Assembly (NCBI GenBank): GCA_963739345.1
Contig: CAVUAA010000002.1
Coordinates: 266,713 to 330,712 of the forward strand
DNA from: an uncultured Verrucomicrobiae bacterium
GTDB taxonomy: Bacteria > Chlamydiota > Chlamydiia > Chlamydiales > JAFEGQ01
DNA: 64,000 bases
Reading direction: 5' to 3'
Shown: positions 47,795-52,693 of the stretch, one piece after another
Position numbering within the stretch: the first letter of the stretch is position 1
Layout of the letters: each line of letters starts with the position of its first letter
Translations under genes and position numbers: made by a program
Notes under the pieces: generated by a model
Seen by the model: only the letters and a program-made list of their open reading frames with translations
Told to the model about the DNA's origin: nothing
The model's database searches: none

Positions 47795-50700
47795 ATGTAC
47801 CGCAAGTATCTGCTAGCAGCCCTTTTTCTCACGACTGCCCTGTGGGGGGAGATTCGCACTCCCGGCACCACAGCAGTCGATCCCTTAGGCCTTATTCACG
47901 GCTGTGTTTCCGTCCTCACCGGCGACTACATCGAGACGCAGCCCGACGTCGTCGTCAACTGCCACGAGCCCATCGCCCTTTGGCGGGTCCACGTCAGTGA
48001 TGGGAGCGACAACAAAGCGCACAGCCGCTGGCGGATTGGTCAGGAAAAGATCGAGACTGACATCTGGGACACAACGAGGAGGAAGGGCCACCTCTTCTTT
48101 CGCGTTGATGAGACCGGATCCGTGATTCAGTTTCAGGTCACCCCTATTCACAAGAAGTGGGGTCTGCGGGGAGATGGCAAACCCCATTGGCAAGCGCTGC
48201 CGAAGGCCGACAGCTACTGTAACACCTCATCTGGTGAGCTAAGCGGTAGAGCTCATCTTCTTAATGATCGTCTCGAATACAGCACGCCATCTGAGACCTT
48301 CACCCTTTTTCGCGGCAACGGTGAAGAGCGCCTTTACCGACACATCGGCAAGTGGACCAGGAGGGGTCTCATCAGGCGGTTCGTCGGCTTTTGTGGCGAG
48401 ATGTACGACGGCAAGCCTCGTGGTGAGCAGGAGACGTTTCGCCTTTCGCGCGTGCGCCGTCCTAATGGCAACCAAGTTTTCTATTACTATGACAAAGAAG
48501 GGCGCCTTGTCAGCATCCAATCTTCTAATGCTGATAAGACCATCACCTTTGGCTACATCTCCATCCAGTACAATGATCACAACACCGTCGTCACCACAAG
48601 CGATGGCCAGAAGCTGGTCTACACCCCCGACAACAATCGCCCCGAGCGCCCACTTACCGAGATCACCCGTAATGGCCAGCTCGTCGCCCATTTCGGCTAC
48701 CACGTCCGCTCTCGCAAAAACAACTACATGGCCCTCTCCCACATCTACCGTCCCGACGGCCGCGTCCGTGCCATCGAATACTACTACACTGGCGATCAGA
48801 CCCCCTGCCACCAGCGGGTTCACATCCCCGACGACGATTTCCGCCGCGGCCGCGTCAGCCTCATTTGCGAGCCCTCCGCCGAGGATGGCTCCCTCCAGCG
48901 GCGCTACGCCTTCTACTACGGGTACAAGCGAAAAGATGGGGATGCCCGCCGCGATTGGACCGACGTCTACGACGCTCACGGCGTCCTTACCCGCTACAAC
49001 ATCGTCAACAAGCGACTCGAGCAGGTGACCACCTATGACGACGGCCGCCCTATCAGAATCATCCGCCAAGGGTGGTCGGGCTCTGACCTCGCCGCCCGCA
49101 CCGTTGACGGCGGCCACACCCGCACCTACGCCTACGACAACCATCACAACGTCACTTCCGAGACCCTCGATGACATTCTCATCCGCACCTGCACCTACAC
49201 CCACTTCAACCTCCTCGCCACCGAGACCGTCGGTCACCTTCGCACCACCTATACCTACCTCCCCAACACCGACCTCCTCACCACCAAAAAAACCTACGAC
49301 CACGACATCCTCATCTCCCAAGAGAACTTCACCTACGACCACAACGCCGCCCTCATCCATCACGAAATCCACTCCGGCCCCCAACACCTCATCACCCGCA
49401 TCACCAATCGCCCCGACGGCCTCCCCATCCTTGTCGAAGAGCTTAACCAAACACACCTCACCTACGATCCTCAAAACCGCCTCATCCAACAAACCACCGA
49501 CGACAAAACCACCACCACCACCTACGACCCCCATTACCGTATCGCCGCCCATACCAACCCCCTTGGCCACACCACCACCTATACCTACGACGCCAACAAC
49601 AACCTCACCTCAACCACCACCCCCACCCGCACCACCCAAACCACCTACGACCACGCCAATCGACCCACCACCACCACCCTCTTCGACCGCACCACTCACA
49701 CCACTTACGATCTCTTCGATCGCCCCACCTCAACCACCACTCCTGATGGCGACACCACCACCTACACCTACGATCCTCTAGGCCGCCTCCACACCACCAC
49801 CGCCCCCGACGGCGGCACCACCAGCTACACCTACGACGCAGAAGACCGCCTCATCGCCCAAACCGACCCTCTCGGCCACACCACCCACACCACCTACAAC
49901 CACCTCGACCAGCCCCTCACCATCACCTACCCCGACGAAACCACCGAGTCCTTCACCTACACCCCCACCGGCCACCTCCTCACCCACACCACCCGCGACA
50001 ACGTTCTCACCACATACACCCGCGACGCCCTAGGGCGCGAGACCTCCGCCACCACCCCCCACTCCCAAACCCACACCACCTACTCAGGCAACTTCCTCAT
50101 CTCCCACACCGACCCCATCAACCTCCTCACCACCTACACCTACGACCCCGCTGGCCGCCTCATCCTCACCACCACCCCCGAAACAACTCTTGCCTGCACC
50201 TACGATAGCCATTCCCGCCTCACCACCACCCTTGAAAACGACCTCCGCCTCACCATCAACACCTACGACCTCCTCGACCGCCTCCTCACCCAGCAAACCC
50301 GCACCCTCACCACCTACACCTACGACCCCGACTCCAACCTTCTCTCCACCACCACCGGCCCCTCCACCACTACCCACACCTACGATCCCTACGGTCGCCT
50401 CATCACCACCACCGACCCTTGCGGCAATCTCACCACCCACGCCCACTCACCCCATCTCCTCATCACCACCCACCCTAATCAAACCACCACCCACACCCAC
50501 ACCGACCACGCCGGCCGCCCCCTCCTCACCGAAAAACACTCCCACCACCTCCTCTCCCGCACCGCCTACACCTACGACCTCAACGGCAACCTCCTCATCG
50601 AAGACCACTCCCGCATTCAAGACGCCCAAACCCTCAACCACTACATCCTCACCCGCACCTACGACCCCGCCTCCCGCCTCCTCACCCTCCTAGAGAACGA

Positions 50701-52693: not shown

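What the first reader, a model, noticed from the sequence alone, without database searches (positions are those of the whole stretch)
47795..52693. Sec-signal Rhs/YD-repeat polymorphic toxin in a Chlamydia-like genome
Seen: this is a 1632-aa ORF with a cleavable-looking signal peptide and the Rhs N-terminal pattern (VLTGDYIETQPDVVV..PIALWRVH). It has more than 30 YD repeats and the conserved core-end motif RYYSSSSRRWLTPDPLGHTPGPNLYAYCSNNPLSLLDLYGQ. A ~278-aa tail with different composition follows. Established: Rhs shells encapsulate and autoproteolytically release a variable C-terminal toxin. They are usually delivered by T6SS (PAAR/VgrG-linked) or as TcB/TcC-type ABC toxins. No PAAR, VgrG, TcA/TcB or chaperone gene is visible here, and chlamydiae rely on T3SS. 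Inference: this may be a Sec-exported, possibly surface-displayed or released Rhs cage, used against co-infecting bacteria or against the host. Such a weapon would be unusual for an obligate intracellular lineage. The final core motif reads DLYGQ rather than the usual DPxGL, so autoproteolysis competence is uncertain.
Basis: partly seen in the sequence, partly recalled or inferred. Interest (0 to 1): 0.8.

Follow-up and report, generated by a model that had tools for sequence, protein, structure and literature searches.

The report
Chlamydial Rhs toxin with immunity lipoprotein
An uncultured relative of Chlamydia carries an intact Rhs "cage" toxin with a secretion signal, an esterase/lipase-like warhead and a matching protective lipoprotein gene, which is a known kind of bacterial weapon but one that hints these intracellular bacteria fight other bacteria.

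Summary
Window 47795-52693 (+) is an intact 1632-aa Rhs/YD-repeat protein in an environmental chlamydial genome. It has a Sec-type signal peptide, an N-terminal plug motif and a YD shell. Its Rhs core keeps both catalytic aspartates (D1327, D1350), so the unusual DLYGQ ending does not argue against self-cleavage.

- The 278-aa tail is an alpha/beta-hydrolase with an invariant Ser1524-Asp1572-His1603 triad. It belongs to a large, apparently chlamydial toxin-domain family (about 2,900 clusters) related to Pfam DUF687.
- The next gene (52690-53190) overlaps the rhs stop by 4 nt and encodes a lipoprotein. All 9 Rhs loci examined with this tail have such an exported ORF. Sister chlamydial Rhs with other tails have cytoplasmic downstream ORFs, one of them Pfam Imm40.
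- Tail and lipoprotein are under purifying selection (omega 0.14 and 0.10) against a syntenic relative.

Most likely this is a T6SS-independent, Sec-exported toxin/immunity pair acting on a bacterial envelope. A host-directed role is the main rival. How the cage leaves the periplasm is unknown.

Rhs toxins in chlamydiae were already catalogued, so this is a new member of a known kind, of moderate interest.

The parts
47785..47789 (+). Shine-Dalgarno-like AGGAG, 5 nt upstream of the rhs ATG
   Evidence: Read directly from the sequence
47795..52693 (+). rhs gene: intact 1632-aa Rhs/YD-repeat protein (stop codon included)
47795..47851 (+). Predicted Sec signal peptide (aa 1 to about 19, MYRKYLLAALFLTTALWGE)
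   Evidence: Basic n-region plus hydrophobic core, mean hydropathy over 12 residues 2.07. The chlamydial homologues read in full all begin the same way. 43 of 55 long family members have a hydrophobic N-terminus. No dedicated predictor was run.
47900..48010 (+). N-terminal plug motif (aa 36-72, GCVSVLTGDYIETQPDVVV..PIALWRVH), DUF6531-like
   Evidence: Weak direct Pfam hit, DUF6531 E 0.11 at aa 38-72. PF20148 is on record for homologues. The A5 consensus is VNxxTGxYxxxxxDLxVxGxxPLxxxRxY.
48461..51433 (+). YD-repeat shell (aa about 223-1213), Thr-rich
   Evidence: RHS_repeat and YD_repeat_2x hits. Repeat HMM. In the AlphaFold2 model, aa 442-1152 form a continuous beta-hairpin strip at pLDDT 85-94. 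Foldseek gives E 1e-47 to 1e-40 to solved Rhs shells.
51638..51856 (+). Rhs-associated core / aspartyl autoprotease plug (aa 1282-1354). Candidate catalytic D1327 and D1350. Predicted cleavage after Q1354.
   Evidence: TIGR03696 at 3.7e-18. Gapless alignment to the core ends of TccC3, YenC2 and RHS2. Asp-mutant entries in PDB titles (TccC3-D651A; Tse15 D1369N/D1391N). Rhs1 D1338N abolishes cleavage (PMC8636562). The cleavage site is inferred by alignment.
51857..52690 (+). C-terminal toxin domain (aa 1355-1632): alpha/beta-hydrolase, DUF687-related, with candidate triad Ser1524 (PHSKA elbow), Asp1572, His1603
   Evidence: An HMM built from 5 sister tails, with ours excluded, scores 31.1 bits, per-sequence E 6.9e-12. 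Ser, Asp and His are invariant in 156/156, 156/156 and 154/156 sequences. AlphaFold2 pLDDT 86, pTM 0.78, with the serine between strand 163-169 and helix 172-181. All significant Foldseek PDB hits are alpha/beta-hydrolases. Omega is 0.14 against the ortholog.
52690..53190 (+). Candidate immunity gene: 166-aa lipoprotein (MKKLKSLFALSLVFLVVGC, lipobox VVGC). Its ATG overlaps the rhs TGA (ATGA).
   Evidence: Ortholog in the syntenic relative L087 is 79% identical with the same overlap, omega 0.10. Distant homologue downstream of the closest tail, P0015 (L084; 27% identity to the L087 copy, E 2e-7). An exported ORF sits downstream in 9 of 9 hydrolase-tail loci against 0 of 4 loci with other tails.

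Best explanation
**What it is.** This is a self-contained Rhs polymorphic toxin/immunity module of an environmental chlamydia.

**How it most likely works**
1. The 1632-aa precursor is exported to the periplasm by Sec (inferred from the signal peptide).
2. It folds into a closed YD-repeat cage. The cage is sealed by a DUF6531-like N-terminal plug and by the Rhs-core aspartyl-protease plug (shown by sequence and model).
3. The core cuts the chain after Q1354, using D1327 and D1350, so that the 278-aa tail sits inside the cage as a separate polypeptide (inferred by homology).
4. The tail is a serine alpha/beta-hydrolase with a Ser1524-Asp1572-His1603 triad. It is most likely an esterase or (phospho)lipase that attacks an envelope component. 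The fold and triad are shown; the substrate is inferred.
5. The overlapping downstream gene encodes a periplasm-facing lipoprotein. It neutralises the hydrolase in the producer and its kin (inferred from conserved adjacency, co-variation with the tail subtype, and matching compartment).
6. The module therefore most likely serves antagonism between chlamydiae, or against other bacteria sharing the same host cell or niche.

**What is not known.** Delivery does not use T6SS or Tc machinery. How the cage leaves the periplasm is unknown; type II secretion, vesicles or cell lysis are candidates.
For: **Rhs identity and cage:**

**Core protease:** it is intact at the sequence level. Asp-dependence is known from PMC8636562 and from PDB mutant entries.

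**Tail**
- Profile homology to sister tails is 31 bits with ours left out of the profile.
- The triad is invariant across 156 sequences.
- The AlphaFold2 model is confident, with the serine at a nucleophile elbow.
- Only alpha/beta-hydrolases appear as fold neighbours.
- The domain sits at the extreme C-terminus in 151 of 155 family members, and 55 of those are long Rhs-size proteins.

**Polymorphism:** chlamydial Rhs L001, L002, L016 and L026 share the N-terminus and shell but carry four other tails.

**Immunity**
- The gene overlaps rhs by ATGA and has a lipobox.
- 9 of 9 hydrolase-tail loci have an abutting 166-182-aa ORF with a hydrophobic N-terminus (12-residue hydropathy 2.27-3.04).
- Downstream ORFs at the 4 loci with other tails score 0.02-1.06. 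One of them is Pfam Imm40 at 39.4 bits.
- The downstream ORFs fall into two families that track tail subtype. Ours pairs with the ORF next to the closest tail, P0015.

**Selection:** omega is 0.14 for the tail and 0.10 for the lipoprotein, compared with 0.11 for GreA. Synteny is conserved in relative L087.

**No delivery domains:** no PAAR, VgrG or TcB domain was found in this protein, in the 17 family members scanned, or in the window ORFs scanned.
Against: - No activity, cleavage, export or immunity function has been tested. All of it is sequence and model inference.
- The nucleophile elbow is P-H-S-K-A rather than the family consensus C-H-S-Q-G. Ala at +2 occurs in only 8 of 156 sequences.
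- Pfam itself finds nothing in this tail, even at E up to 10. Single-sequence similarity to sister tails is weak, 10 bits.
- The lipoprotein could protect the producer only during periplasmic transit of a host-directed enzyme.
- The gene's upstream neighbours look like host-directed effectors: a protein with a weak deubiquitinase (UCH) hit and an Inc-like membrane protein.
- The same hydrolase domain also occurs without Rhs, fused to TPR repeats or to a eukaryote-type kinase.
- The ortholog in L087 is split by a frameshift.
- No route across the outer membrane is known for such a cage.
- The rest of the genome could not be searched.
Confidence: 0.6

Rival explanations
1. **Host-directed effector.** The same Rhs cage is released into the inclusion, vacuole or host cytosol. 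Its esterase/lipase acts on host membranes, for example in entry, vacuole remodelling or exit. The lipoprotein only shields the bacterium's own membranes while the Sec-exported precursor passes through the periplasm.
For: - Chlamydiae are host-dependent.
- Zhang et al. argue that toxin-like proteins of intracellular bacteria mostly target the host (PMC3482391).
- The gene lies next to a lower-GC block that encodes a 1669-aa protein with a weak C-terminal UCH hit and an Inc-like 289-aa protein.
- Family members exist with a C-terminal eukaryote-type kinase or with TPR repeats.
- The related DUF687 proteins of Chlamydia (CT326, CPn0066 and others) are predicted inclusion-membrane proteins (PMC3048545).
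Against: - The downstream protein's compartment tracks the tail type across the clade: exported for hydrolase tails, cytoplasmic for other tails, including an Imm40. That is the signature of immunity against attack by siblings.
- Cytoplasmic immunity proteins make little sense for toxins aimed at a host.
- The effector-like neighbours are absent from the syntenic relative L087, so the adjacency is not conserved.
Confidence: 0.25
2. **Decaying or non-toxic gene.** It would be a relic Rhs on its way to loss, or a surface/adhesin-type YD protein like teneurins, whose tail no longer works as an enzyme.
For: - The ortholog in L087 is in two reading frames.
- The shell evolves fast: omega 0.48, and 51-56% identity in the N-terminal half.
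- The nucleophile elbow is atypical, PHSKA.
- Characterised DUF687 proteins are described as lacking catalytic residues (PMC11878206).
Against: - The ORF here is intact over 4.9 kb.
- Both protease aspartates and the Ser-Asp-His triad are retained.
- Tail and lipoprotein show purifying selection equal to a housekeeping gene.
- The L087 frameshift lies in a repetitive ACC-rich stretch of a metagenome assembly and may be an error.
Confidence: 0.08
3. **Conventional T6SS- or Tc-delivered Rhs.** Its partner genes (VgrG/PAAR/Eag chaperone, or TcA/TcB) would lie elsewhere in the genome.
For: - Only 64 kb of a contig of at least 469 kb could be inspected.
- Most characterised Rhs toxins of Gram-negative bacteria are T6SS cargo (PMC8636562).
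Against: - The protein starts with a signal peptide followed directly by the plug. It has no PAAR, prePAAR, VgrG-binding or clade domain.
- It forms a complete shell on its own, unlike TcC, which needs TcB. Foldseek ranks Rhs shells far above TcB-TcC.
- None of the scanned relatives has such domains or neighbours.
- T6SS cargo is not Sec-exported (established knowledge).
Confidence: 0.05

Closest known systems
T6SS-associated Rhs effectors (RhsA of P. protegens 7q97, Rhs1 of P. laumondii 7pq5, RhsP 8h8a, Tse15, Tse5)
   Same: - YD-repeat cage and C-terminal Rhs-core aspartyl-protease plug.
- Encapsulated variable toxin, with an immunity gene immediately downstream.
- Best sequence and fold matches.
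   Different: - No PAAR, prePAAR, clade domain, VgrG or Eag chaperone.
- A Sec signal peptide and the plug motif sit at the very N-terminus instead.
- 18-20% identity in the structural alignments and at most 30% to any homologue found.
Sec-dependent ('T2SS-type') RHS polymorphic toxins catalogued by Zhang et al. 2012 (PMC3482391), including Gram-positive WapA
   Same: - Signal peptide + RHS repeats + variable C-terminal toxin + adjacent immunity gene.
- Chlamydiae are already listed among the phyla carrying RHS-linked toxin domains.
   Different: - The toxin domain here matched nothing in Pfam, which would include any toxin families from that catalogue that it holds.
- That paper stressed the scarcity of immunity genes in intracellular bacteria, whereas this clade has them.
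- The organism has two membranes, so Sec export alone does not release the protein.
TcB/TcC cocoon of ABC (Tc) toxins (TcdB2-TccC3, YenB-YenC2)
   Same: - Homologous core end: RYY..DPxG..NLY..NNP..D-x-x-G-x with two aspartates 23 residues apart.
- Tail size (278 aa) is close to the TccC3 hypervariable region, about 280 aa (the TccC3 figure is from my own knowledge).
   Different: - TcC supplies only half of the shell and needs TcB and the TcA injector.
- Here one chain makes the whole shell, and no Tc genes are seen.
T6SS lipase effectors Tle1-4 with periplasmic Tli immunity proteins
   Same: - Works alike: a GxSxG-type alpha/beta-hydrolase toxin acting from the periplasmic side.
- It is neutralised by an exported immunity protein, often a lipoprotein (established knowledge).
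   Different: - No sequence relationship detected: no Pfam hit to DUF2235, Lipase_3 or similar families.
- Carried inside an Rhs cage rather than delivered by T6SS.
- The substrate is unknown.
Pfam DUF687 (PF05095): CT326, CPn0066/0069/0381/0882 of Chlamydia
   Same: - The toxin-domain family matches positions about 35-178 of the DUF687 model above Pfam's threshold in several members (P0133 39.6, P0153 39.9, P0129 34.8 bits).
- NCBI names P0005 a 'DUF687 family protein'.
- Both are alpha/beta-hydrolase-like (PMC11878206).
   Different: [quoted passage not shown]
- This tail keeps Ser-Asp-His, has no transmembrane bundle, and does not itself reach any Pfam score.

Membership tests
Rhs/YD-repeat polymorphic toxin | Many YD (RHS) repeats forming a closed beta-shell | tested here: met
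   RHS_repeat 6.9e-67 and YD_repeat_2x 6.8e-62. The AlphaFold2 model shows a continuous beta-hairpin strip at pLDDT 85-94. Foldseek gives E 1e-47 to 1e-40 to solved Rhs shells. Closure of the cage could not be inspected, because only aa 433-1632 fitted the 1200-residue limit.
Rhs/YD-repeat polymorphic toxin | Rhs-associated core with the aspartyl autoprotease motif that demarcates the toxin | tested here: met
   TIGR03696 at 3.7e-18, 65.8 bits against a cut-off of 32.5. D1327 and D1350 align without gaps to the two aspartates of the TccC3, YenC2 and RHS2 core ends.
Rhs/YD-repeat polymorphic toxin | Autoproteolytic release of the C-terminal domain | not testable with these tools
   This needs expression of the protein and mass spectrometry or a western blot. 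Only conservation of the catalytic residues is shown.
Rhs/YD-repeat polymorphic toxin | Variable C-terminal toxin on a conserved N-terminus and shell | tested here: met
   Chlamydial Rhs L001, L002, L016 and L026 share the signal peptide, plug motif and shell but have four unrelated tails. P0001, P0002, P0005, P0015 and P0020 share the hydrolase tail.
Rhs/YD-repeat polymorphic toxin | Cognate immunity gene immediately downstream | tested here: inconclusive
   A candidate is present, with an ATGA overlap. It is conserved in 9 of 9 hydrolase-tail loci, co-varies with tail subtype, and is exported. An Imm40 sits downstream of a sister Rhs.
T6SS-delivered Rhs effector | PAAR/prePAAR or VgrG-binding N-terminus, with VgrG, Eag chaperone or Hcp genes nearby | tested here: not met
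   No such Pfam or NCBIfam hit in the protein or in any window ORF that was scanned. The N-terminus is a signal peptide. The rest of the genome is untested.
Tc (ABC) toxin TcC subunit | Half-shell of about 680 aa that pairs with a TcB subunit and docks on TcA | tested here: not met
   A single chain carries about 1,300 aa of plug, shell and core. There are no TcA or TcB genes in the window. Only the core end matches TcC, and TcB-TcC ranks below Rhs shells and teneurins.
Pfam DUF687 (PF05095) | Score at or above Pfam's gathering threshold (25 bits) against the 537-position model | tested here: not met
   No Pfam family at E up to 10 for this tail. The relationship is only transitive, through sister tails that do pass the threshold.
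Alpha/beta-hydrolase superfamily (serine hydrolase) | Alpha/beta-hydrolase fold with the nucleophile at a strand-turn-helix elbow, and an acid and a His downstream in that order | tested here: met
   AlphaFold2 pLDDT 86. Ser170 of the tail lies between strand 163-169 and helix 172-181. Ser, Asp and His are invariant in the family. All 19 Foldseek hits with E of 1e-3 or better are alpha/beta-hydrolases, but TM-scores are only 0.35-0.49. The three-dimensional geometry of the triad was not measured.

The most novel reading that the evidence does not exclude
Environmental chlamydiae may wage toxin/immunity warfare against each other, or against other bacteria sharing the same host cell. They would use a Sec-exported Rhs cage that needs no T6SS, which implies an undescribed way for an Rhs cage to cross two membranes and reach a neighbour's periplasm. 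On this reading, the enigmatic DUF687 inclusion-membrane proteins of pathogenic Chlamydia (CT326 and the CPn0066 family) would be domesticated, catalytically dead descendants of this antibacterial hydrolase warhead.
Probability: 0.2. Interest if true: 0.7.

Novelty: new member of a known kind. Interest (0 to 1): 0.45.

Why it matters
- **Competition inside hosts.** It is generally assumed that obligate intracellular bacteria have little need for weapons against other bacteria. Here a whole chlamydial clade of Rhs proteins carries swapped tails and compartment-matched immunity genes. That argues competition between chlamydiae, or with co-resident bacteria such as Legionella in amoebae, is a real selective force. 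It gives concrete candidates to test.
- **Delivery.** The locus is a clean example of an Rhs cage in a two-membrane bacterium with no T6SS or Tc partner. This sharpens the open question of how such cages are delivered.
- **A handle on DUF687.** The warhead family (about 2,900 sequence clusters, catalytic triad intact) links to DUF687. That offers the first functional lead on a Chlamydia-specific protein family of unknown role.
- **Limits.** None of this changes the classification. It remains a polymorphic toxin system of a known type.

Tried and rejected
- **Direct searches with the tail.** Pfam on the tail, the lipoprotein and the 289-aa upstream ORF at E up to 10 found nothing. Single-sequence phmmer of the tail against the first 120 homologues found nothing with default filters and only weak hits with filters off. 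A profile was needed.
- **Word-index protein search with the tail alignment.** It returned a single protein and was wasted.
- **PDB sequence search with the tail profile.** Nothing significant.
- **Identifying the source record.** The organism name and the rest of the genome stayed out of reach. The GTDB scan found no close relative of the Rhs, best 28% identity.
- **Uninformative scans.** Promoter/terminator scan was at background level. Rfam found nothing in the window. No orphan Rhs fragments or extra toxin copies are in the window.
- **Downstream ORF as export helper: considered and rejected.** It co-varies with the tail, not with the conserved shell.
- **Antisense ORF 48239-49570 as a gene: rejected.** It is a by-product of the ACC-rich coding strand.
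Full report
**1.

Window 47795-52693 (+) is one uninterrupted ORF of 1632 codons, preceded by AGGAG five bases upstream of the ATG.

- Pfam RHS_repeat matches at E 6.9e-67 in 12 stretches.
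- NCBIfam gives YD_repeat_2x at 6.8e-62. It also gives the Rhs-associated core domain at aa 1282-1353 (3.7e-18, 65.8 bits against a cut-off of 32.5).
- There are 33 YD dipeptides. A repeat HMM trained on the protein itself units, about 28 of them strong, between aa 223 and 1213.
- The shell region matches solved Rhs proteins by sequence: RhsP, RhsA, Tse15, Tse5 and Tre23-Rhs1, E 1e-26 to 1e-20.
- An AlphaFold2 model of aa 433-1632 has mean pLDDT 79.7. It shows an unbroken strip of beta-hairpins over aa 442-1152 at pLDDT 85-94.
- Foldseek places that model next to Rhs shells at E 1e-47 to 1e-40. Teneurins come next (1e-38 to 1e-30) and TcB-TcC after them (about 1e-28).

**2. The genome is chlamydial, but not a close relative of Chlamydia**

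- The window encodes the chlamydial GreA fusion. It scores 838 bits against equivalog model NF004969, whose cut-off is 697.
- It also encodes a TopA-SWIB fusion, NqrA, ThyX and tyrosine/tryptophan permeases.
- TopA-SWIB is 83% identical to a protein in a JGI metagenome and 68% to a Parachlamydiales genome assembled from a metagenome. It is 61-65% identical to Waddlia, Protochlamydia and Parachlamydia.
- GC content is about 55%.

This is an uncultured environmental chlamydia. Its host association is assumed, not shown.

**3. The core protease looks competent**

The core end aligns without gaps to TccC3: RWLSSDPAGTIDGLNLYRMVRNNPVTLLDPDGL|MPT against RWLTPDPLGHTPGPNLYAYCSNNPLSLLDLYGQ|VPV.
- Both aspartates, D1327 and D1350, are kept 23 residues apart.
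- The final position of the motif is M in YenC2 and R in RHS2. Among chlamydial relatives it is L, L, L, L and E. So that position is variable.
- Mutation of the aspartate in the second motif abolishes C-terminal cleavage in Rhs1 (PMC8636562). PDB entries exist for TccC3-D651A and Tse15 D1369N/D1391N cleavage mutants.
- Cleavage after Q1354 is my inference from the alignment. It was not tested.

**4. The tail is an alpha/beta-hydrolase with an intact triad**

- Pfam finds nothing in aa 1355-1632, even at E up to 10.
- Five of the closest full-length homologues are P0001, P0002 (a Chlamydiales metagenome-assembled genome), P0005 (named 'DUF687 family protein'), P0015 and P0020. They share a tail with an HSQG motif.
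- An HMM built from those five tails, with ours left out, hits our tail at 31.1 bits with per-sequence E 6.9e-12.
- A profile search of 1.84 billion representative proteins found 2,899 clusters at E of 1e-3 or better, and 1,874 at 1e-10 or better.
- I re-scored the 155 proteins held locally. The domain is at the extreme C-terminus in 151 of them, and 55 are at least 1,300 aa long. Of those 55, 43 have a hydrophobic N-terminus.
- With our tail added, that makes 156 aligned sequences. Tail residues Ser170, Asp218 and His249 (Ser1524, Asp1572, His1603 of the protein) are invariant in 156, 156 and 154 of them. The elbow consensus is C-H-S-Q-G; ours reads P-H-S-K-A.
- AlphaFold2 with a 26-sequence alignment gives pLDDT 86 and pTM 0.78. 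The serine lies between strand 163-169 and helix 172-181, which is the classic nucleophile elbow.
- Every significant Foldseek hit is an alpha/beta-hydrolase: carboxylesterase, thioesterase, cutinase/PETase, dienelactone hydrolase or lipase. TM-scores are only 0.35-0.49, so there is no close solved relative and the substrate is open.
- Several family members pass Pfam's DUF687 threshold over model positions 35-178. The members that carry a source name are Chlamydiae or Chlamydiales assemblies.
- DUF687 proteins (CT326, CPn0066 and others) are predicted inclusion-membrane proteins (PMC3048545). They have been described as alpha/beta-hydrolase-like but lacking catalytic residues (PMC11878206).

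**5. The next gene looks like the immunity gene**

- ORF 52690-53190 starts inside the rhs stop codon (ATGA). It encodes MKKLKSLFALSLVFLVVGC..., a lipoprotein signal with a lipobox.
- I examined nine Rhs loci that carry this tail: the window, L081, L083, L084, L085, L086, L087, L088 and L089. All nine have an abutting or overlapping ORF of 166-182 aa (one is cut by a contig end). All nine ORFs have a hydrophobic N-terminus, with 12-residue hydropathy 2.27-3.04.
- The downstream ORFs form two families.
  - Family A covers six loci.
  - Family B holds ours, its ortholog in L087 (79% identity), and the ORF next to P0015. That ORF is 27% identical to the L087 copy, at E 2e-7 in the small local search.
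  - P0015 is also the closest tail to ours in the single-sequence search.
- Four chlamydial Rhs share the signal peptide, plug and shell but carry other tails (L001, L002, L016, L026). Their downstream ORFs have no hydrophobic N-terminus, scoring 0.02-1.06. The one next to L016 is Pfam Imm40 at 39.4 bits.

So the downstream protein tracks the tail both in family and in compartment. That is the signature of toxin/immunity pairs. It argues against a role as a generic export helper.

**6. Conservation against a syntenic relative**

- A JGI metagenome contig (L087) has the same order: nqrA, greA, ham1, yacP..., rhs, lipoprotein.
- Between the two genomes, omega (Nei-Gojobori method with Jukes-Cantor correction) is 0.14 for the tail, 0.10 for the lipoprotein and 0.11 for GreA. 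It is 0.48 for the shell.
- The L087 rhs is split by one frameshift near aa 805, in the ACC-rich repeat region. This could be an assembly error or a very recent inactivation.
- The block 40.8-47.7 kb is absent from L087. It has 48-50% GC and encodes a 1669-aa protein with a weak UCH hit and an Inc-like 289-aa ORF. Its adjacency to rhs is therefore not conserved.

**7. Mechanism and its uncertainties**

- *Shown:* Rhs architecture, retained protease and hydrolase residues, polymorphic tails in the clade, and conserved adjacency of an exported ORF.
- *Inferred:* Sec export, self-cleavage, encapsulation, an envelope-directed esterase/lipase activity, neutralisation by the lipoprotein, and use against bacteria.
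- *Main rival:* a host-directed role, with the lipoprotein serving only for self-protection during transit.
- *Unknown:* how a folded cage of about 150 kDa leaves the periplasm and reaches a target. Type II secretion is the known chlamydial route for Sec-dependent folded proteins (my own knowledge). Vesicles or lysis are alternatives.
- No T6SS or Tc gene was seen among the window ORFs scanned or in the neighbourhoods of relatives. The full genome could not be reached.

**8. Comparison with what is known, and novelty**

- RHS-linked toxin domains in chlamydiae, the Sec/'T2SS' class of polymorphic toxins, and alpha/beta-hydrolase toxin tails were all catalogued in 2012 (PMC3482391).
- An RHS family was listed among predicted outer-membrane proteins of environmental chlamydiae in 2009 (PMC2811131).
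- Polymorphic-toxin domains of Protochlamydia have been raised as a possible means of interference with Legionella (PMC6520448).
- What I could not find in the papers I searched and read:
  - this hydrolase family described as an active Rhs warhead;
  - its link to DUF687;
  - the systematic exported-immunity pairing. This runs against the view in PMC3482391 that intracellular bacteria largely lack immunity genes.

I therefore class the locus as a new member of a known kind, with moderate interest.

Noticed in passing
window 314-15631 and 34001-35008: At least 13 paralogous ORFs of about 260-420 aa all match PF05150 (Legionella major outer-membrane protein family). Most lie in tandem on the + strand, which points to a strongly expanded porin-like family.
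   Followed up: no
window 40795-47710: A lower-GC block (48-50% against about 55%) that is absent from the syntenic relative L087. It holds three ORFs. One is 1669 aa (41723-46732), whose only hit is a borderline C-terminal ubiquitin-hydrolase (UCH) match of 24.2 bits against a cut-off of 23.9. One is 289 aa (46841-47710) with Inc-like paired hydrophobic segments. One is 202 aa. The block looks like a variable island of host-directed effectors.
   Followed up: partly
window 49475-51604 (rhs aa 561-1270): The shell is 24% threonine, and 202 of the gene's 246 Thr codons are ACC. This gives 62% GC, GC skew of -0.64 and short tandem DNA repeats. The 443-aa antisense ORF 48239-49570 is a by-product. 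The reason for the Thr bias is unknown.
   Followed up: partly
L087 6906-11512: The ortholog in a related metagenome contig is split by one frameshift near aa 805 and lacks about 77 aa. Even so, its tail shows omega 0.14. Synonymous divergence in rhs (0.41-0.55) is less than half that of the flanking lipoprotein gene and greA (1.19-1.37).
   Followed up: partly
proteins P0186, P0205, P0268, P0153 and many short family members: The same hydrolase domain also occurs internally in signal-peptide + RHS proteins; the one scanned with Pfam (P0186) ends in a eukaryote-type Ser/Thr kinase domain. It occurs after TPR repeats, and in many 230-600-aa non-Rhs proteins that begin 'MSI[DE]..D....W.GR'. These may be a separate, possibly host-directed, deployment of the domain.
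   Followed up: no
L016 10495-10830: The ORF directly downstream of a chlamydial Rhs with an unrelated tail matches Pfam Imm40 (39.4 bits from its first 60 residues). A second 111-aa ORF follows it, suggesting a small immunity array.
   Followed up: partly
window 23119-25206: A 695-aa ORF with an inverse-autotransporter (intimin/invasin-type) beta-domain, IAT_beta E 1e-10.
   Followed up: no
window 30786-32420: A 544-aa ThyX with two matched Thy1 stretches, about twice the usual length. This suggests an internally duplicated or fused flavin-dependent thymidylate synthase.
   Followed up: no
window 54197-55045 (-) and 55204-55956 (+): Divergently transcribed paralogs, 38% identical over 242 aa, with no family match. 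The minus-strand copy has a signal-peptide-like start.
   Followed up: no
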